24,924 nt of DNA. Origin: Patescibacteria group bacterium (GTDB lineage Bacteria; Patescibacteriota; Minisyncoccia; Sungbacterales; HO2-52-23). The stretch lies in assembly GCA_038063095.1 (NCBI GenBank), contig JBBTVQ010000095.1:1-24924 (forward strand). The letters run 5' to 3'. Made by a program: the position numbers and the translations under genes. The notes beneath the pieces are model-generated. The model made no database searches. It was not told the DNA's origin and saw only the letters and a list, made by a program, of their open reading frames with translations. Positions 1-6,105 of this stretch are shown here, piece by piece (the first letter of the stretch is position 1; each line of letters begins with the position of its first letter).

Positions 1-43
1 ATGATTTCTTCGTCTCCAGATCAATGACCAGCGTGTCGCGCAT
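1..43 (-). CDS. 5' fragment of a putative RNase H-like/DEDD 3'-5' exonuclease (runs off the window edge)
   Basis: Minus strand from ATG at 43 reads MRDTLVIDLETKKS. The hhhDxET pattern matches the ExoI motif, and a promoter lies directly upstream. Only 14 codons are visible. Confidence 0.5.
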   Translation of the reverse strand, partial: MRDTLVIDLETKKS

Positions 44-49
44 GGAGGG

Positions 50-78
50 AGTATAAATGAAACCATGCAGAAAATCAA
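50..78 (-). promoter_or_regulatory. sigma70-type promoter, probably leaderless
   Basis: Minus strand TTGATT(78-73)-N17-TATACT(55-50)-N6-ATG(43). Confidence 0.55.
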
Positions 79-173
79 ATTCCGTTTACGCTTCGCCTTC
101 CTGCTCTCCGCTCACGATTGCGGCATGAGTAAAGTATCCTCGCTCCGCGGCGGGAACCCTCAGTTTTTACTCC

Positions 174-362
174 TTAATTATCGCTGAAAGTACGACCTAC
201 CCTTACCGCTTCTAACCTGCCATCATTATTCTTCCGTAGCAAGAATTCGACCGTATCGCCCTCGGTAAGGTCTTGAAAATTTGCTCCGATGACATTCTTT
301 GCATGGAAAAAAATGTCTTCTTCATAATGCCCTGTCTTGATAAAACCGTATCCCTTCTCCAT
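174..362 (-). CDS. cold-shock domain (CSD) protein, probably the frameshifted C-terminal domain of the upstream SIR2-STAND protein
   Basis: RNP1 KGYGFI and RNP2 DIFFH, then 'FQDLTEGDTVEF' and 'EAVRV'. The frame stays open upstream to 410 and encodes the beta1 segment ERKGTILKL with no ATG/GTG/TTG. Confidence 0.85.
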   Translation of the reverse strand: MEKGYGFIKTGHYEEDIFFHAKNVIGANFQDLTEGDTVEFLLRKNNDGRLEAVRVGRTFSDN

Positions 363-367
363 AAGTT

Positions 368-2812
368 TTAAAATAGTCCCCTTTCTTTCATTTTCATGAT
401 TTCTTGCAAGTTATTCTTACACTCTTTGACAAACCTATTGTTCATAACAGAAAAATCTAATCTTCGCATCCCCTCCAAGATCATCTGACAGGCTAACAAA
501 AATTCACTTTTTTGCTCCGACGCGAGTTTTTTGAAATGCTTGAAGAAAAAACCATAGTAGCCTTTGGCAACACGATATGGATAGTAGAGATCCGTCTGGT
601 TAAATTGCGGCATCAAAAGTTCATGTGCTTTGATAAAATGCCTATATGCTTTGTCCGCATCACCCTCTGCCTTGGAACGCTCTAAAAGATATCGTGCAAA
701 ATGATTATCAATTTGTCTCGTGTTATAATTGCCAAGTTTTTCTGCATAAGCATAAGAGTTCTCAAAATAAATTCCGGCTTCATCAAGGTCTGGAAATGAC
801 AAGCGAGCAATCGCATATTGAAGCCAAAAATGCGGATGTTCTTTTGTTGAATCGAGATTCTTTAATGCCTCATAAAAATTGATTGCCATAGGGCGCCGTT
901 GCCGCTCGGGTAATATCATCTGCAAGTTGCTGAATCTAACCAGCTCTCTAAAAATCCAGTAGTAGGTCGAATTATTTTTACCTAAGCGTTCTGCTCTTTT
1001 GGCAATCTTTATCAAAGAATTGATGAGGAGCGTACTATCCGAAATGCTACTCAATATAAACTGGCTAAACACGGATGATTGTAGTTCAATGGAATCTCTG
1101 CCGATGCGTATAATTTCGCGTATGCCCGCATGCTGCCGAATTCTTGCGTCGCGAACAACATCTGTTTCAAGGATGTCCGACACCGATGAAATTGTAACCT
1201 CATGGCCCAAAAGAAGCGAAAGAGCACACGATGCGACGATAAGTTCAACAGCTCCTGTTCCGTCCTTCATCTGCTCAATCTCCCTAAGCACGTTTAAAAA
1301 ACGGGAGGAAATGTCGGGTGATTTTAATAATTCTAATAATAGGCGTTGAAAGGAATTATTCATCAAGTCAAGGACACGCTTCTTTTCGGAAAAACTTTTT
1401 GCCGCATGCTTGCCCCAGAAACTAAAGTGGTCAAGAATTGAAATGATTTGATCGGCGGCAGAATCGTCGATCTGATCCACATCCAGAAGAACGGGTTTCT
1501 GGTCGAGAGCATCCAACAACCTATCATAGTAATGATCATTGATATCGGTTCTGGCAGTCAAAATAAGAATAACCTTACTTGTCCGATTGGCACGCAGATA
1601 GTGAAGATTTTTTAGATAGCGATAGTAATTCTCGACAACCACAACAATCGGTTCTCTATCGCGGCAGAGTGAAGTAATATCTCGATTTATATGGTAGTCG
1701 TCGTACTCGGGTTTTAACCAAAATACTTTATATCCTTCCAGCAGGGCCTTGTGGGCAATCCCGAGACATAAAAGTGTTTTCCCGTTCCCCAATGATGAAG
1801 TAATCAGGAATGTTTTCTTTTTTTGCTCCGCATATTTAGAAATTATTGCCAGATTGGAACGGAGCACATAATAAGGAGGATTCTGCCCGGGCTCCAAGAG
1901 AGACTTATACACGAGCCCCCTATCAACCTCACCGCGCAGAAAGAGATTAAACGCATCCTGATCCTTAGTAATGCGGATATCGTTTGGTTTTTTTATTTCT
2001 TCAAAAGCGATGCGTACAGGCTCGTAACGTGCGGGATTCCAACTTCTCTTTTTTTCATCTAATATGCGAGAAAACTTCTCCATTCCCCAGGGGAGGACCG
2101 TGCCGTACTTGGCGAGTATCAACTGGTCAACCTTTGACGGTTGCGGATTAGTAATGAGGAAACACTTGTCTTTTATTGCCCGTTCTTCATATAGAATTCG
2201 CGTAATATCAATATCGCCCAAGGATGTCCCGAGGAAAAATATCGCTTGCGCGTGACGCAATTGAGTCCTAAAAAAATCACCCCACAAGCTACCACGGAAT
2301 GTGTCCGTTAGATAACTAGTATCGGTGAGCTTGAAAGAGTCAAATAGAGAATCCGGCGTCAGTGATCCAATATCGCCATTGATGTGGAGACATAAATCTG
2401 GTACGGCTACAAACTGGGATGGGTCTTGACCAAGTGTCACAGAAACGAGTTGTCGTGAATTTTCCGCATAGGCCCGCTCAAGCACATTATCATAATTGGT
2501 CGTAAATATACGAAACCAATGTACAGCTCCGATACTTTTGTGGTGATCCGCTATCACTTTGACGCTAAACTGACCTCGTAAAAGATTGGCCAACTCTTCA
2601 TCGCTGGACTGTTCAACAAAAATTTCTGCGGCGTGGCGTAAATTGACCTGTTCTTCACTAATATTTATTTTTCCGAGCAATAGCTTAGTCAGCTGTGCGC
2701 CGTTCAAAAAACTCTTATTCAAAATATTGGTCGCGCCCAGCGAAAAACCAGAACCAAGAAATAAGACCGCTTCTCCGTTCAGTGCGTGTTCCAATGCTTG
2801 TTCTATTGTCAT
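368..2812 (-). CDS. SIR2-like NADase domain + STAND-type P-loop NTPase + helical C-terminal region; putative anti-phage protein (AVAST type V/Avs5-like architecture)
   Basis: 814 aa. SIR2 motifs VLFLGSGFS, IFTTNYD and FFLGTSLGDIDI. Walker A-like ITSSLGNGKTL, Walker B-like VVVVENY, helical C-terminus (HFWLQYAIARL, IDNHFARYLLE). AT-richer than flanking core genes. Confidence 0.8.
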   Translation of the reverse strand: MTIEQALEHALNGEAVLFLGSGFSLGATNILNKSFLNGAQLTKLLLGKINISEEQVNLRHAAEIFVEQSSDEELANLLRGQFSVKVIADHHKSIGAVHWFRIFTTNYDNVLERAYAENSRQLVSVTLGQDPSQFVAVPDLCLHINGDIGSLTPDSLFDSFKLTDTSYLTDTFRGSLWGDFFRTQLRHAQAIFFLGTSLGDIDITRILYEERAIKDKCFLITNPQPSKVDQLILAKYGTVLPWGMEKFSRILDEKKRSWNPARYEPVRIAFEEIKKPNDIRITKDQDAFNLFLRGEVDRGLVYKSLLEPGQNPPYYVLRSNLAIISKYAEQKKKTFLITSSLGNGKTLLCLGIAHKALLEGYKVFWLKPEYDDYHINRDITSLCRDREPIVVVVENYYRYLKNLHYLRANRTSKVILILTARTDINDHYYDRLLDALDQKPVLLDVDQIDDSAADQIISILDHFSFWGKHAAKSFSEKKRVLDLMNNSFQRLLLELLKSPDISSRFLNVLREIEQMKDGTGAVELIVASCALSLLLGHEVTISSVSDILETDVVRDARIRQHAGIREIIRIGRDSIELQSSVFSQFILSSISDSTLLINSLIKIAKRAERLGKNNSTYYWIFRELVRFSNLQMILPERQRRPMAINFYEALKNLDSTKEHPHFWLQYAIARLSFPDLDEAGIYFENSYAYAEKLGNYNTRQIDNHFARYLLERSKAEGDADKAYRHFIKAHELLMPQFNQTDLYYPYRVAKGYYGFFFKHFKKLASEQKSEFLLACQMILEGMRRLDFSVMNNRFVKECKNNLQEIMKMKERGLF

Positions 2813-2876
2813 GTTAAAATAAGATTTACATTAAGTCATCGATCTTTTTGGTCATGTCCGCCACTAATTACCCTCT

Positions 2877-4259
2877 TTATCTTGCCCCTTTCACATACTT
2901 GTCAAAAAACTGGAGCGCCCGATCCGCGGCAAGGGGCCATGCGGCCGCAAACTCGTGGCCTTCGCCCTGATATTTGAAAAACTCCGCTTTTTTGTTGAGC
3001 CGGGTGAGCGCGTTGAACATGTCCTGCGAGAAGGTCATGGGCACGGCGTAGTCCGCGACTCCGTGATGGAACTGCACGGGCGCGCGCACGCGGTCAAAGT
3101 ACGCAATCGGCGAGATGCGCCGATATATCGGCGCGGCTTCTACGCCGTAGGTGGCGCGCAACCACCGCACCTCATCGGCGCCCAATTCATAAAAATTTTC
3201 CTCCGCATCCGCGCTGATGGGCGCAAACAAGACATACGCGCGGATGTCGGGCGAGAGCACTGCCGCGCGCGCGGCAATGCCTCCGCCCATACTATGCCCC
3301 CACATCCCGATGCGTCCCTTGTCCATCAAGGTACCGCCATGATTTTTTATCGCGTCCACGAGCGCCATGACATCCCGGGTATAGCCCACATAAAAATCAT
3401 GATGCGGGTTTGTATTGGGGCTGGAAGAGGCATGCCCGCGGTAATCAGGGTGTAGGGTGACGTACCCGTGCTTCGCGAAGAAATCCTGCTCGCGCCGGGA
3501 CCCGCGGCCGGACGTATAAATCTTTGGATCAATAAGTCCGTGATTGAGAATGAGCACTGGAAATCCTCCAGCGGGCACCGGACCGGATGGTACGTTGATA
3601 ATGCCAGTCAGGCGCAAGTCGCCCGATTGATAGGTAAAGGGGTATTTCTGGTACGCGCGGTTTTCCTCAATGACTTTACCCATGACAAAGTCGCGGCCAG
3701 CCGCGGGGTTTTCATATAAAGCATCGATGGTGAACTCCGCTCCGGGCTCCGGAGACGGCGGGGGCTCCGGCGTCTCCCCCATCGCCACATCTCCCTCCGT
3801 GATGCGGATACGATCGCCGATGAGGATGTGGTACTTTTTTGCAAATCCCGCCCGGGTCTCCAACACCATCTCCGCGTCCGCGTCAGGGCGATACACCGGC
3901 AGCGCCGCATCCCCGACGCCCGGCGCAGGCGCAGGTACGTTTTCTTCCATATCCACGACGACGCCGTTTCGTATCCAAAAAATATCGATCGGGAATTGCA
4001 TCTCTTTCATCCAAATCGCGTAGCGATCCGGGCGCCCGAAAACAAAGAGCATTGCCTGATTTTCTCCGATCGCTTCCCGACCGGAGAGGCCGCGCGCCCA
4101 GGCAGTCCGCTCGGATGCCTTCTCGGCAACCAGCGAGGCGCCATTGATCTCCACGGTCGCGAATCCCTTCCCGTCGCCGCGCGAGAACGCAAAAAGCGCT
4201 CCGATGGAAAGACCAAAGAGCGCCAGTGCGGCAAGGATAGCGGTACGGAGTGAGGGCAT
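2877..4259 (-). CDS. membrane-anchored DUF192 domain fused to an alpha/beta hydrolase (S9/prolyl oligopeptidase-like)
   Basis: N-terminal hydrophobic helix. DUF192 signature (GLSGRE..MLFVF..IWMKEMQFPIDIFWI..VLETRAG), Pro-rich linker, nucleophile GHSMGG, then GVADYAVP (Asp) and GEGHEF (His). Confidence 0.8.
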   Translation of the reverse strand: MPSLRTAILAALALFGLSIGALFAFSRGDGKGFATVEINGASLVAEKASERTAWARGLSGREAIGENQAMLFVFGRPDRYAIWMKEMQFPIDIFWIRNGVVVDMEENVPAPAPGVGDAALPVYRPDADAEMVLETRAGFAKKYHILIGDRIRITEGDVAMGETPEPPPSPEPGAEFTIDALYENPAAGRDFVMGKVIEENRAYQKYPFTYQSGDLRLTGIINVPSGPVPAGGFPVLILNHGLIDPKIYTSGRGSRREQDFFAKHGYVTLHPDYRGHASSSPNTNPHHDFYVGYTRDVMALVDAIKNHGGTLMDKGRIGMWGHSMGGGIAARAAVLSPDIRAYVLFAPISADAEENFYELGADEVRWLRATYGVEAAPIYRRISPIAYFDRVRAPVQFHHGVADYAVPMTFSQDMFNALTRLNKKAEFFKYQGEGHEFAAAWPLAADRALQFFDKYVKGAR

Positions 4260-4288
4260 ACTACTCGGAGGGGGAGACCCTTACGAAG

Positions 4289-4399
4289 GGGAGTAAAAGC
4301 AAATGTCTTTGCTTTTACTCCCTTCCGACACAGGCGAAGCTCGCTGCCTCCCCTTTCCACTGTGGCCGAGTATCGCGGAATAAATCCGCGATACTCGGC
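4289..4399. repeat. two perfect 15-bp inverted repeats (4289-4303/4308-4322 and 4365-4379/4385-4399)
   Basis: GGGAGTAAAAGCAAA-tgtc-TTTGCTTTTACTCCC and GCCGAGTATCGCGGA-ataaa-TCCGCGATACTCGGC, read directly from the sequence. Confidence 0.9.
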
Positions 4400-4410
4400 G
4401 AATTTTATTA

Positions 4411-4584
4411 CTACACGGATTTATCCTCCAACCCAGTATAGCCCAGTCGCGTTTTAGCCACAAGTTCCTTGACGCGCTGTTCTGCCTCGGCATGATCCGG
4501 CGCCTCGCGCCGGATGCGGGCTTTTTCGCGGCGCAGAAATTTTCGCGCCGATGCGGGAAGTTTGCGAAGTTGCCTGCGAGACAT
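4411..4584 (-). CDS. small basic hypothetical protein (57 aa)
   Basis: ATG at 4584 gives MSRRQLRKLPASARKFLRREKARIRRE..., an Arg/Lys-rich helical protein filling an otherwise empty gap on the same strand as its neighbours. Confidence 0.6.
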   Translation of the reverse strand: MSRRQLRKLPASARKFLRREKARIRREAPDHAEAEQRVKELVAKTRLGYTGLEDKSV

Positions 4585-4703
4585 GCCAGCGAGCGTAGCA
4601 GAAATTGACGCGCGGGTCAATCAAGGCATACGATAATCACCTTTGATTTTCTCTTTGCCATCGCCACGTCAAGATGCGGCATATCATAGCAGACGCGTCA
4701 TTT

Positions 4704-4743
4704 CATTTCAATATGTATTCCGATCGGAATGCGTATTGAAATG
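4704..4743. repeat. 40-bp REP-like palindrome with CCGATCGG core
   Basis: CATTTCAATATGT-ATTCCGATCGGAAT-GCGTATTGAAATG. The 14-bp core is perfect and the arms pair with two G:T mismatches. A related copy is at 21589-21623. Confidence 0.75.
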
Positions 4744-4744
4744 A

Positions 4745-5662
4745 TTATTTTTCGCTTGTAATCCGCGCGTCCAGTTGCGGCAGGATCTGGTCGGTCGGAA
4801 ATCCGTAGGTCTCAAAGTCGCCGATGGTACGTGCCGCGTGGAGGCCCCGCGTATCCGCCGGATGCTCGCCTGCCTCGTGAAAGTCAGACCCGCCGGTAAA
4901 GAGCAGTCCGTATTTCCCGGCGAGTACCCAGAGATACTCCGCGTCGTCTTCAGTGTGCGCGGGGCTGAAGACCTCCAGCCCCGCAATACCCCAGCCGATC
5001 AACTGCTTCAAAAATGCCTCGAGCCCTTCTTCGTCGCCCTGAAAATGGACCGCCGGGTGCGACCACACCGCAACACCCCCGGCGATATGAATGAGCGCTA
5101 TCGCGTCCTTGGCAGAAATGTGCGCCCGGCGAACGTAATACGGACTCTCGTCAGTGAGATATTTCTGGATGAAATCATGGCTCGTCGCAATGCCGCCGAG
5201 TTTTTCCATGTTTTCCGGCCGCCCCAAAACGGCGCGCGCGATATGCGGACGTGCTATGGCGCCCTGCGCCTCGCGCGCAACATCCTCCCACGCCACCGCA
5301 AACCCCGCGGCCGCGAGATTCTGCACCATCTGCTTGGCGCCCTCCACGCGTGTCTTCTGAAACTCCTCCAGCCGAGCGCACAATACCGGGTGCGCGTGAT
5401 CAACGCCGTACGCCAAGAGGTGCGCCCCGCGGTCTTCCACCGACAATTCAATGCCGGGGATCACCCGCACGCCAGCAGCCCTTCCCGCGGCGAGCGCCTC
5501 GGCAACGCCGCCCACGGTGTCGTGGTCGGTCATGGCAATCACGAAAACGTCCCCGTCTTTTGCCATTGTCACAATCTCCGCGGGCGCGTGTTTTCCGTCC
5601 GAGGCAATGGATTGAATTTGTAAGTCAAACGGCTGCATCTTACGTATGCGCACACGAATCAA
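4745..5662 (-). CDS. PHP-domain metal-dependent phosphoesterase (TrpH/YciV-like)
   Basis: Motifs DLQIQSIASDG, TDHD, GIELS, RPHIARA, WSHP and GGSDFH. The start is either TTG at 5662 (overlapping the archease stop) or ATG at 5638. Confidence 0.9.
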   Translation of the reverse strand: MIRVRIRKMQPFDLQIQSIASDGKHAPAEIVTMAKDGDVFVIAMTDHDTVGGVAEALAAGRAAGVRVIPGIELSVEDRGAHLLAYGVDHAHPVLCARLEEFQKTRVEGAKQMVQNLAAAGFAVAWEDVAREAQGAIARPHIARAVLGRPENMEKLGGIATSHDFIQKYLTDESPYYVRRAHISAKDAIALIHIAGGVAVWSHPAVHFQGDEEGLEAFLKQLIGWGIAGLEVFSPAHTEDDAEYLWVLAGKYGLLFTGGSDFHEAGEHPADTRGLHAARTIGDFETYGFPTDQILPQLDARITSEK

Positions 5663-6105
5663 CTCTCAAACACCAGCGTGGTTTCCAAAAGGCCCGTGTC
5701 CGGATTTTTCTTGATATCCACATCCTGATACGACACCGCGCGTATTTCCGTAGCCACATCCTCCACCGCGACGCCGGTGAGCTCCGCCTCCAGAAAGTTT
5801 TCCCCAAACGCGCGGAAGGCCGCGGACGTGAATACGGCGCCGTGCGCATCTGCCTCCGCGAGTATCCGGGTCATAAACTCCACGAGGAGCGAAGGCGCGT
5901 CCACCGCCTGCACCGCGATGCCCTGCACCACGCGCTTGTCCCCGGCGCCCGCCGTGAGCGCCTCGGGATGCATATAGGCCGCGGCAGCGCGGAGCGCATG
6001 CACAAAAAGATCGCGCACGGTGCGGCCCCGCACGCGCACGAGGACATCGTGGTCGTCCCGGGGGATGATCTCAAACTCGCGGCCTTCTTTCGCTATGGTT
6101 GACAT
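5659..6105 (-). CDS. archease-family protein (divergent)
   Basis: 148 aa with the archease layout: FEII..D V.V.V.GRT..DLF..A, 'L..EF...L...D', 'EAELTG', 'EIRAVSYQDV.I', ending 'TLVFES'. Confidence 0.75.
   Translation of the reverse strand: MSTIAKEGREFEIIPRDDHDVLVRVRGRTVRDLFVHALRAAAAYMHPEALTAGAGDKRVVQGIAVQAVDAPSLLVEFMTRILAEADAHGAVFTSAAFRAFGENFLEAELTGVAVEDVATEIRAVSYQDVDIKKNPDTGLLETTLVFES

What the first reader, a model, noticed from the sequence alone, without database searches (positions are those of the whole stretch)
174..2812. SIR2-STAND putative defence protein with a cold-shock domain one base out of frame: likely a SIR2-STAND-CSD fusion
Seen in sequence: the SIR2-STAND ORF ends ...EIMKMKERGLF*. 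In the -1 frame, 410-363 is open and reads LARNHENERKGTILKL, continuing into MEKGYGFIKT...DIFFH. 'RKGTILKLMEKGYGFI' matches the N-terminus of cold-shock domains (K-G-x-V-K-W-F...K-G-F-G-F-I), so beta1 lies upstream of the only ATG and inside the SIR2 gene. Adding one A to the A4 run (plus-strand TTTT 391-394) gives a continuous 879-aa protein (...QEIMKNERKGTILKLMEKGYGF...). There is no A_AAA_AAG slippery site or long homopolymer. Established: SIR2 domains with the TTNYD motif act as NAD+-depleting effectors in Thoeris, DSR and AVAST type V systems; STAND NTPases are infection-sensing switches; CSDs bind single-stranded nucleic acid. Inference: an NLR-like anti-phage protein with a nucleic-acid-binding CSD at the sensor end, here split by mutation, assembly error or recoding. 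I cannot confirm whether this CSD-bearing architecture has already been described.
Basis: partly seen in the sequence, partly recalled or inferred. Interest (0 to 1): 0.8.

Follow-up and report, generated by a model that had tools for sequence, protein, structure and literature searches.

The report
Avs5 gene with frameshifted cold-shock tail
A tiny groundwater bacterium has acquired a known kind of NAD-destroying anti-phage sensor gene (Avs5), and a cold-shock RNA/DNA-binding domain sits directly behind it one base out of frame, so it is most likely a broken or unfinished copy of a domain layout already known from a large sister family and from human SAMD9.

Summary
368-2812(-) encodes a complete 814-aa SIR2-nSTAND5-helical-sensor protein. 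It is a full-length homologue of the characterised anti-phage protein EfAvs5 (PDB 9JAP, E 1e-80). Five bases after its stop lies a 62-aa cold-shock domain (CSD) ORF. Its first beta-strand is encoded upstream of its ATG, in the -1 frame of the Avs5 gene, with no start codon.

The closest CSD relatives are free-standing 66-aa proteins that begin MQQGTIAKLMEKGYGF. The window's ATG is therefore a conserved internal Met. The one-base offset is real in DNA: the junction is identical in eight contigs, and Logan contigs of two studies show no indel there.

No slippery site, RNA structure or Rfam match supports recoding. None of the 120 closest Avs5 homologues and none of 82 homologue loci has a fused or linked CSD.

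A distant long-form family (about 1,030 aa, SIR2-nSTAND5-TPR-CSD, SAMD9-like) does carry an in-frame terminal CSD. This scan had noted that family before on other DNA, and I confirmed it here.

Best reading: a lineage-specific Avs5::csp fusion that is now frameshifted or was never completed. It leaves a working Avs5 and a probably inert CSD remnant. This is a variant of a known kind, of low to moderate interest.

The parts
368..2812 (-). Avs5-family gene: 814-aa SIR2 - nSTAND5 NTPase - helical C-terminal sensor, complete
   Evidence: Pfam SIR2_2 (aa 102-216, 5.6e-12) and nSTAND_NTPase5 (aa 325-423, 6.8e-9). phmmer to EfAvs5 PDB 9JAP gives E 1e-80, aa 12-778 against 52-824. Its C-terminus ends where 55 homologues end.
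2165..2509 (-). SIR2 NADase core, including the TTNYD motif (Asn106 codon at 2495-2497) and His143
   Evidence: T104, T105, N106, Y107, D108, H143, N145 and G146 are invariant in 37 homologues. N106 aligns with EfAvs5 N141; the N141A mutant loses defence (PMC11897194).
1544..1840 (-). STAND NTPase core: Walker A GNGKT (Lys345 codon 1778-1780), Walker B-like VVVVEN, and sensor Arg in LILTAR
   Evidence: Pfam PF25199. The alignment to EfAvs5 covers K379, D426 and R453.
363..410 (-). 16 codons open in the CSD frame upstream of the CSD ATG, with no start codon; they overlap the last 14 codons and the stop codon of the Avs5 ORF in its -1 frame
   Evidence: Sequence, translation, Pfam extension to profile position 2.
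360..389 (-). CSD beta-strand 1 (ERKGTILKLM), ending at the annotated start Met
   Evidence: AF2 strand E8-17, pLDDT about 93. G, T, I, K and L are invariant with P0122/P0123. The Gly is nearly invariant in 48 fused tails.
381..397 (-). Junction: ATGAAA ATGAAA (397-386) followed by AAAG AAAG (388-381). ATG 391-389 sits where a csp start codon is expected but 8 nt (not 6 or 9) before the beta1 Gly codon, and it is in the Avs5 frame
   Evidence: Sequence. Compared with the DNA of the P0122 gene, which reads ATG + 6 nt + GGA ACT ATC.
368..370 (-). TAA stop of the Avs5 ORF, inside the beta1 coding stretch and 5 nt before the CSD ATG
174..362 (-). 62-aa CSD ORF as it would be called: strands 2-5 with the KGYGFI and IFFH motifs, lacking strand 1
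   Evidence: Pfam CSD 4.8e-14, profile 11-63; AF2 model.
174..2876 (.). Low-GC two-ORF islet, inserted between two host genes and absent from the same-genus genomes searched
   Evidence: GC is 0.39 (CSD) and 0.42 (Avs5), against 0.555 for the rest of the contig and 0.557 for the genome. Alternative flanks appear in other contigs. No Avs5 match in 99 relatives.
2877..4259 (-). Host flank: 460-aa gene of host GC content
1..43 (-). Host flank: start of an exonuclease-like gene (MRDTLVIDLET...) that continues in contig C47

Best explanation
The 2.7-kb low-GC islet is a horizontally acquired single-gene defence system of the Avs5 (AVAST type 5, SIR2-STAND) family. By analogy with EfAvs5 and PaAvs5, the helical C-terminal sensor recognises a phage protein, the STAND NTPase drives oligomerisation or filament formation, and the SIR2 domain then hydrolyses NAD+ and aborts the infection.

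A csp-type cold-shock domain has been joined directly to the 3' end of this short-form Avs5. Avs5 homology ends at codon ~805 (window 398). Seven bases on sits an ATG in the Avs5 frame, at the position of a csp start codon. There is no stop codon or intergenic spacer between them. A -1/+2 frame offset within the first three csp codons (8 nt where 6, 9 or 12 are needed) now ends the Avs5 ORF after nine extra residues. It leaves the CSD without a start codon for its first strand.

The most likely history is an in-frame Avs5::CSD fusion that has since been frameshifted. That fusion would be an independent re-creation of the SIR2-STAND-(TPR)-CSD layout of the long-form sister family and of SAMD9. 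The broken state is the only form assembled at this site; its age cannot be dated. Avs5 remains complete and presumably active. The CSD is either untranslated or made as a strand-1-less 62-aa fragment by coupling from AUG 362.

Shown: family membership, domain integrity, the position of beta1, the reality of the offset in DNA, the lack of a CSD in near relatives, and the existence of fused distant relatives. Inferred: the order of events, the activity of the protein, and the inertness of the CSD.
For: **Avs5 membership and intact motifs**
-.

**Foreign origin**
- The islet has foreign GC content.
- Avs5 was not found in 99 relatives, including 2 of the same genus.

**Position of beta1**
- Beta1 is encoded upstream of the ATG and is homologous to the N-termini of free-standing csp proteins.
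- ATG 391-389 lies in the Avs5 frame with no intervening stop, so any single indel that restores the csp frame also fuses the ORFs.

**The offset is real**
- It is reproduced in 8 contigs, and Logan contigs of two studies show no indel.

**No recoding signal**
- No slippery heptamer (sequence).
- Junction RNA fold z = -0.43.
- No Rfam match.

**Relatives**
- The short-form family ends at the same point with variable 0-30-aa tails.
- It has no conserved partner gene.
- The long-form family carries an in-frame terminal CSD. 57 ORFs of at least 900 aa were recovered. 18 of 48 tails hit PF00313. Window CSD against tails reaches 41% identity, always at the extreme C-terminus.
- The short form aligns to the first ~837 of 1043 long-form columns at 100% probability.

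**Literature**
- EfAvs5 mechanism: PMC11897194.
- PaAvs5: PMC12931631.
- SAMD9 layout SIR2-NTPase-TPR-OB: PMC12680541.
Against: - No in-frame allele was seen anywhere, so a past functional fusion is inferred, not observed.
- The Avs5-frame position of the ATG has a 1-in-3 chance of being accidental.
- The CSD ORF is still intact (78 sense codons in 39% GC DNA, no decay). That fits either a very recent break or continued use.
- The nearest Avs5 relatives (50% identity) lack any CSD, so selection for the association cannot be shown.
- Only contig-level data were available, so minor read-level alleles are unknown.
- PADLOC gave only weak SIR2 hits (ThsA 2e-6, Dsr2 3e-5) and no hit to an AVAST/Avs model at E <= 0.01.
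Confidence: 0.55

Rival explanations
1. Accidental juxtaposition. A recombination or deletion event in the donor joined the Avs5 3' end to a neighbouring csp gene and damaged the csp 5' end at the same time. No fusion protein ever existed, and the CSD is a hitch-hiking gene remnant.
For: The CSD's nearest relatives are free-standing housekeeping-type csp genes. No near Avs5 relative has a CSD. The small tandem duplications at the junction (ATGAAA x2, AAAG x2) look like repair or slippage scars.
Against: The junction keeps every structural element of the domain and loses only the frame of the start codon. Avs5 reads into the csp ATG in frame with no spacer. The CSD shows no further decay. The same layout is selected for in the long-form family.
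Confidence: 0.2
2. Functional two-gene module. Avs5 and a small CSD protein are made separately. The CSD comes from AUG 362 by termination-reinitiation (stop and start are 5 nt apart), or from a non-AUG start such as AUU 374-372. It acts as a nucleic-acid-binding partner or regulator.
For: The stop-5 nt-ATG spacing is typical of translational coupling. The CSD ORF is intact with RNP1/RNP2-like motifs. A small CSD protein is a recognised partner in retron type V (PMC7736814; weak PADLOC CSD_V hit 8e-7). A purine-rich AAGGGG lies upstream.
Against: The AUG product lacks the whole first strand of a five-strand barrel. The Met is a conserved internal residue in relatives that start earlier. AAGGGG is 15 nt from AUG 362 and 3 nt from AUU 374, both poor spacings. 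No CSD partner occurs in 82 homologue loci.
Confidence: 0.12
3. Programmed recoding. A fraction of ribosomes shift -1 (or +2) between 400 and 371 and make an 878/879-aa Avs5-CSD alongside the 814-aa Avs5.
For: The two frames overlap exactly where a linker would be. The offset is stable across samples and years. Both products would be plausible proteins.
Against: There is no X XXY YYZ heptamer, no A AAG in the zero frame and no long homopolymer. The U UUU UAA context favours +1, which leads into the third frame, closed after 16 codons. There is no stimulatory structure (z = -0.43), no Rfam hit, and no conserved relatives to show maintenance.
Confidence: 0.05
4. Consensus or sequencing artefact. 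The organism really carries an in-frame 879-aa gene.
For: A single base in a short homopolymer would suffice. All data come from one site and from short-read assemblies.
Against: The junction is identical in 8 contigs from at least 5 runs and two assemblers. Logan contigs of a second study released four years later agree, at 6-11x depth, with no indel reported. A4 runs are not error-prone on the short-read platforms implied by the assemblies.
Confidence: 0.03

Closest known systems
Avs5 / AVAST type 5 (SIR2-STAND): EfAvs5 (PDB 9JAP), EcAvs5, PaAvs5-1/2/3
   Same: Full-length homology to EfAvs5 (E 1e-80, aa 12-778). SIR2 with the catalytic Asn, Walker A Lys, Walker B acidic residue and sensor Arg. 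A short helical C-terminal sensor. About 810 aa. A single-gene system found in variable islands and on plasmids.
   Different: About 27-30% identical to the characterised proteins, and untested. Sits in a 0.77-Mb groundwater genome. Has a CSD coding stretch abutting its 3' end in the -1 frame. No PADLOC AVAST model hit at E <= 0.01.
Long-form SIR2 - nSTAND5 - TPR - CSD family (about 1,020-1,045 aa; noted repeatedly by this scan) and the SAMD9/9L and Avs9 layout (SIR2 - NTPase - TPR - OB)
   Same: Same domain order if the window's two ORFs are read as one. The bodies are homologous (hhalign probability 100%, E 7e-43). The terminal CSDs share the G-T-[IV]-x-K ... [YF]-[GA]-F-[IV] ... [IV]-F-x-H pattern, up to 41% identity.
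   Different: The window has the short body, with no ~135-aa extra TPR segment. Its CSD is nearer to free-standing csp proteins (52%) than to any fused tail. The CSD is out of frame in the DNA. The association is therefore probably an independent event.
Free-standing bacterial cold-shock proteins (CspA/CspB type; nearest are P0122/P0123, 66 aa)
   Same: 52% identity. The same unusual GTIxKLMEKGYGFIK N-terminal motif. The five-strand OB barrel model matches Bc-Csp and CspB (TM 0.8-0.87).
   Different: No own start codon before strand 1. Embedded in a defence islet. It is the only CSD in this genome.
Retron type V accessory CSD protein
   Same: A small CSD protein in a defence context; weak PADLOC CSD_V match (8e-7).
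   Different: No reverse transcriptase or msr/msd RNA in the islet.

Membership tests
Avs5 (AVAST type 5, SIR2-STAND) | N-terminal SIR2-like NADase domain with the catalytic Asn of the TTNYD motif | tested here: met
   PF13289 5.6e-12. N106 is invariant in 37 homologues and aligns with EfAvs5 N141.
Avs5 (AVAST type 5, SIR2-STAND) | Central STAND/NOD NTPase with Walker A Lys, Walker B acidic residue and sensor Arg | tested here: met
   PF25199 6.8e-9, PF20720 2.5e-4. GNGKT, VVVVEN and LILTAR align with EfAvs5 K379, D426 and R453.
Avs5 (AVAST type 5, SIR2-STAND) | Short helical C-terminal sensor homologous to that of characterised Avs5 | tested here: met
   The phmmer alignment runs to aa 778 of 814 against 824 of 869 in 9JAP.
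Avs5 (AVAST type 5, SIR2-STAND) | Single-gene system without a conserved partner | tested here: met
   51 downstream ORFs in 82 homologue loci share no similarity. No linked CSD.
Avs5 (AVAST type 5, SIR2-STAND) | Recognised by a curated defence-system model | tested here: inconclusive
   PADLOC gave only ThsA (2e-6) and Dsr2 (3e-5) SIR2 hits, and no AVAST model at E <= 0.01.
Avs5 (AVAST type 5, SIR2-STAND) | Phage-triggered NAD+ depletion and protection | not testable with these tools
   Needs expression and phage assays.
Long-form SIR2-nSTAND5-TPR-CSD (SAMD9-like) family | CSD/OB domain in frame at the C-terminus of the same polypeptide | tested here: not met
   The CSD is in the -1 frame, and a TAA at 370-368 ends the Avs5 ORF in all 8 contigs.
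Long-form SIR2-nSTAND5-TPR-CSD (SAMD9-like) family | Extra TPR segment between the Avs5-like body and the CSD (total about 1,030 aa) | tested here: not met
   The short-form profile aligns to long-form columns 4-837 of 1043 only. The window would give 879 aa.
Cold-shock domain (PF00313) | Five-strand OB barrel with RNP1 (KGYGFI) and RNP2 (IFFH) motifs | tested here: met
   Met for the 78-aa reading: 54.2 bits, profile 2-63; AF2 gives five strands; Foldseek to Csp structures. The 62-aa ORF alone lacks strand 1.
Programmed -1 ribosomal frameshift | Slippery heptamer plus a downstream stimulatory structure, conserved in relatives | tested here: not met
   No heptamer in 400-371. Fold z = -0.43. 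No Rfam hit. No relatives with the junction exist to test conservation.
Retron type V (RT + ncRNA + CSD protein) | Reverse transcriptase and msr/msd RNA next to the CSD gene | tested here: not met
   The islet holds only the two ORFs. No Rfam match in 1-3000.

The most novel reading that the evidence does not exclude
The one-base offset is used rather than suffered. In one version, a low rate of non-canonical -1/+2 shifting or upstream reinitiation makes both a plain Avs5 and an Avs5-CSD with a nucleic-acid-sensing tail from one gene. In another, the strand-1-less 62-aa CSD is completed in trans by the Avs5 C-terminal tail (...KERGLF). Either would give a tunable or split version of the SAMD9-like layout.
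Probability: 0.06. Interest if true: 0.7.

Novelty: new variant of a known kind. Interest (0 to 1): 0.3.

Why it matters
The gene itself is an ordinary new member of the Avs5 family. Two things have modest value.

First, it looks like an independent joining of a csp-type CSD to a short-form Avs5. A large long-form family and animal SAMD9/9L carry a terminal CSD/OB fold in the same position. This suggests that a nucleic-acid-binding tail is repeatedly recruited to SIR2-STAND sensors. It also offers a minimal natural pair (814-aa body with or without a 70-aa tail, one base apart) for testing what that tail does.

Second, it documents a strain-specific NLR-like defence islet in an ultra-small (0.77 Mb) groundwater genome whose sampled relatives lack it.

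For annotation, it is a caution: the 62-aa 'cold-shock protein' that gene callers report here is a 5'-truncated domain.

Tried and rejected
1. **Close homologues with a fused CSD.** The word-indexed search of 5.8 billion proteins with the 814-aa protein gave 120 listed hits, none with PF00313. The same search restricted to fused residues 790-879 gave nothing at E <= 0.01. tblastn against 72,556 plasmids gave 26 records, none reaching beyond residue 806.
2. **A linked CSD gene.** tblastn of two CSD queries on 82 homologue loci with +-4 kb found only an unrelated CspA-like gene, 2.6 kb away on the other strand, in one Rhizobium locus.
3. **Exhaustive phmmer with the 78-aa CSD.** The top 150 were swamped by multi-CSD proteins, so the search was uninformative for single terminal CSDs.
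4. **ESM Atlas look-alikes.** These pointed to SIR2/nSTAND5 clusters of 826-1,118 aa but gave no CSD information.
5. **Single-protein search of 301 Acidobacteriota genomes.** It missed the long forms. The Pfam family search found two. Ten weaker PF25199 hits turned out to be other STAND families.
6. **Recoding signals.** None found (and reading of 400-365).
7. **Shine-Dalgarno statistics for the genome.** A crude ORF set showed no positional enrichment, so nothing could be concluded.
8. **Flanking repeats or att sites of the islet.** Nothing above chance.
9. **Promoter and terminator scan.** At or below shuffle expectation.
10. **An ATGA stop/start overlap as the ancestral two-gene arrangement.** Rejected, because both TGA triplets lie in the third frame and it would need two indels.

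Full report
**What is in the sequence**

On the minus strand, ORF 368-2812 encodes 814 aa ending ...KECKNNLQEIMKMKERGLF, with TAA at 370-368. Five bases further on, ATG 362-360 opens a 62-aa ORF that runs to 174. The frame of that small ORF is open upstream to 410 and reads LARNHENERKGTILKL. It contains no ATG, GTG or TTG and is closed by TAA at 413-411. It is the -1 frame of the large ORF. One added A in the A4 run 394-391 gives an 879-aa ORF.

**The large gene is an Avs5**

- Pfam finds SIR2_2 (aa 102-216, 5.6e-12) and nSTAND_NTPase5 (aa 325-423, 6.8e-9).
- Against all PDB chains, the only strong hit is 9JAP, E 1e-80, aligned over aa 12-778 against 52-824 of 869. 9JAP is the cryo-EM structure of EfAvs5. 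That protein is a SIR2-NOD-sensor protein that forms filaments, hydrolyses NAD+ and protects against phage (PMC11897194).
- The residues shown there to be essential are present: N141 = N106 in TTNYD, Walker A K379 = K345 in GNGKT, Walker B D426 = the Glu in VVVVEN, and R453 = the Arg in LILTAR. They are invariant or nearly so in 37 homologues.
- PADLOC gave only weak SIR2 hits (ThsA, Dsr2) and no AVAST model. I treat that as a limit of those models.
- The family is widespread across phyla: 179 loci in species-representative genomes, plus E. coli and Proteus plasmids.
- Members are about 800-823 aa long. They all end a few residues after a conserved ...YV-x-EC...M..I helix, with variable tails of 0-30 aa. 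The window protein is therefore complete.
- No conserved neighbour exists: 51 downstream ORFs from 82 loci share no similarity. This agrees with Avs5 being a single-gene system.

**The small ORF is a cold-shock domain that has lost its beginning**

- The 62-aa ORF matches Pfam CSD from profile position 11 (52.4 bits). The 78-aa open frame matches from position 2 (54.2 bits).
- The only close relatives in 5.8 billion proteins are two free-standing 66-aa proteins, 52% identical, that start MQQGTIAKLMEKGYGFIK. They sit between ordinary housekeeping-type genes.
- G, T, I, K and L upstream of the window's Met, and the Met itself, are invariant in that alignment. The window's ATG is therefore a conserved internal codon, not an evolved start.
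- An AlphaFold2 model of the 78-aa reading has five strands, with strand 1 at residues 8-17 (ERKGTILKLM, pLDDT about 93). It superposes on complete Csp structures (1C9O, 1CSP, 1MJC; TM 0.80-0.87).
- The 62-aa product would lack strand 1 altogether.

**The offset is real in the DNA**

- The identical 62-aa protein is on nine contigs. I read eight of them (three ENA assemblies of separate filter fractions and replicates, five Logan assemblies of separate runs). The 90-nt junction is letter-identical in all.
- Logan contigs of one 2021 run and one 2025 run from a different study cover 322-428 with no substitution or indel.
- Only contigs, not reads, could be laid, so minor alleles remain untested.

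**Context**

- The window is a whole contig of a 770,948-bp, 99-contig, 92.5%-complete genome.
- The two ORFs form a 39-42% GC islet in a 55.7% GC genome. It lies between a host 460-aa gene (2877-4259) and an exonuclease-like host gene that starts at 43 and continues in contig C47.
- Other contigs in the same samples carry different sequence next to both host flanks (loose ends at 3/80 and 2883-2915), so the islet is strain-variable.
- Among 99 relatives (all 0.5-1.2 Mb genomes), none has an Avs5 match, including two of the same genus. Thirty-nine have an ordinary free-standing csp, 32-45% identical to the window's CSD.
- The window's CSD is the only one in its genome.
- The CSD shares the foreign GC content, so it arrived together with Avs5.

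**Is the CSD a family trait?**

Not of the near family. None of the 120 best homologues has PF00313. The two nearest (50% identity) have unrelated downstream DNA. tblastn finds no linked CSD in 82 loci. No plasmid match extends past residue 806.

Earlier notes of this scan reported a large long-form SIR2-nSTAND5-TPR-CSD family on other DNA. I tested that as follows.

- A PF25199 search of 301 genomes of one phylum gave two proteins of 1,030 and 1,043 aa with SIR2_2, nSTAND5 and TPR.
- A metagenome scan with their alignment returned 80 loci and 57 complete ORFs of at least 900 aa.
- Their last ~65 residues follow the pattern G-[TV]-[IV]-x-K...[YF]-[GA]-F-[IV]...[IV]-F-x-H. 18 of 48 tails reach PF00313 at E <= 0.01.
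- The window CSD and P0122 hit 13 and 15 of these proteins. The match always falls within the last ~80 residues (about 966-1047 of ~1,030-1,047), at up to 41% identity.
- Profile-profile comparison aligns the short-form family to columns 4-837 of the 1,043-column long-form profile (probability 100%, E 6.7e-43).

The long form is therefore the short form plus ~135 aa of TPR plus a CSD. The same order, ending in an OB fold, is described for SAMD9/9L and bacterial Avs9 (PMC12680541). The Avs5 sensor has been reported to cluster structurally with SAMD9 (PMC12931631, PMC13581612). The window, however, has a short-form body, and its CSD is closer to free-standing csp proteins than to any fused tail.

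**Anatomy of the junction**

Avs5 homology runs to ...QEI (ATC 400-398). The sequence then reads ATGAAA ATGAAA G AAAG GGG ACT ATT.

The P0122 gene reads ATG + 6 nt + GGA ACT ATC GCC AAG CTG ATG GAG AAG GGC TAC GGA TTC. The window reads ATG(391-389) + 8 nt (AAAG AAAG) + GGG ACT ATT TTA AAA CTT ATG GAG AAG GGA TAC GGT TTT.

An ATG therefore stands where a csp start is expected, but it is 8 nt rather than 6, 9 or 12 nt before the strand-1 Gly codon. That ATG is in the Avs5 frame, with no stop or spacer before it. Any single event that restores the csp frame (+1, +4 such as a third AAAG, or -2) also yields one continuous Avs5-CSD ORF.

The simplest history is a csp gene fused in frame to the end of a short-form Avs5 and later frameshifted inside its first three codons. 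The alternative is that joining and damage happened in one imprecise event and no fusion protein ever existed.

**Recoding**

- The zero-frame codons AUG AAA AUG AAA GAA AGG GGA CUA UUU UAA contain no X XXY YYZ heptamer and no zero-frame A AAG.
- The UUU-UAA context would favour +1, which enters the third frame, closed after 16 codons.
- There is no homopolymer long enough for transcriptional slippage.
- The 131-nt junction RNA folds no better than shuffles (z = -0.43).
- Rfam finds nothing in 1-3000.
- I put recoding at about 5%.

**Verdict**

The finding is a genuine, carefully observed oddity on an otherwise ordinary gene. It is a horizontally acquired Avs5-family NADase sensor, complete and probably active. 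At its 3' end it carries a csp-derived cold-shock domain that is one base out of frame in all eight contigs examined.

It most likely records a lineage-specific Avs5::CSD fusion that has been broken (about 55%). It could also be an accidental, never-functional juxtaposition (about 20%), a coupled two-protein arrangement (about 12%), recoding (about 5%), or a consensus or sequencing artefact (about 3%).

The architecture is not new, so I rate it a new variant of a known kind with interest 0.3.

Noticed in passing
window 1-55 and G000 contig C47 7041-7095: The first 55 bases of the contig are identical to the end of contig C47. Together they carry one host gene (272-aa exonuclease-like, MRDTLVIDLET...). 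The assembly break coincides with strain variants of that gene seen in other contigs (for example L015).
   Followed up: partly
window 100-167: A GC-rich ~60-nt stretch just downstream of the CSD has four partial copies (79-92% identity) in contigs C39 (two), C27 and C11 of the same genome. It looks like a short dispersed repeat. It has no significant fold (z = -0.17) and no Rfam match.
   Followed up: partly
window 3-80 and 2883-2915: Contigs from the same samples diverge from the window at both edges of the islet (several different loose ends). Co-occurring strains therefore carry other sequence, or nothing, at this site, which suggests a small variable hotspot.
   Followed up: partly
window 2640-2770 (Avs5 codons 15-58): One sample holds a second 131-nt contig with 6 differences, all of which change the amino acid (the two in codon 48 scored singly). 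A 2025 run shows 5 further differences elsewhere in the gene (2 synonymous, 1 conservative, 2 in one Gly codon). This is microdiversity in the defence gene, but none at the junction or in the CSD.
   Followed up: partly
whole genome G000 and 99 relatives: The islet-borne CSD is the only CSD in this 0.77-Mb genome. 39 of 99 related small genomes have a normal free-standing csp, but the two same-genus genomes searched have none.
   Followed up: partly
L131 (G151:C1), 1,163-aa ORF at 2589-6077: A non-SIR2 STAND-type protein found through a weak nSTAND5 hit also ends in a short beta-rich tail that looks OB-like by eye. This hints that OB/CSD tails may occur on other STAND families. Not verified with any profile.
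   Followed up: no
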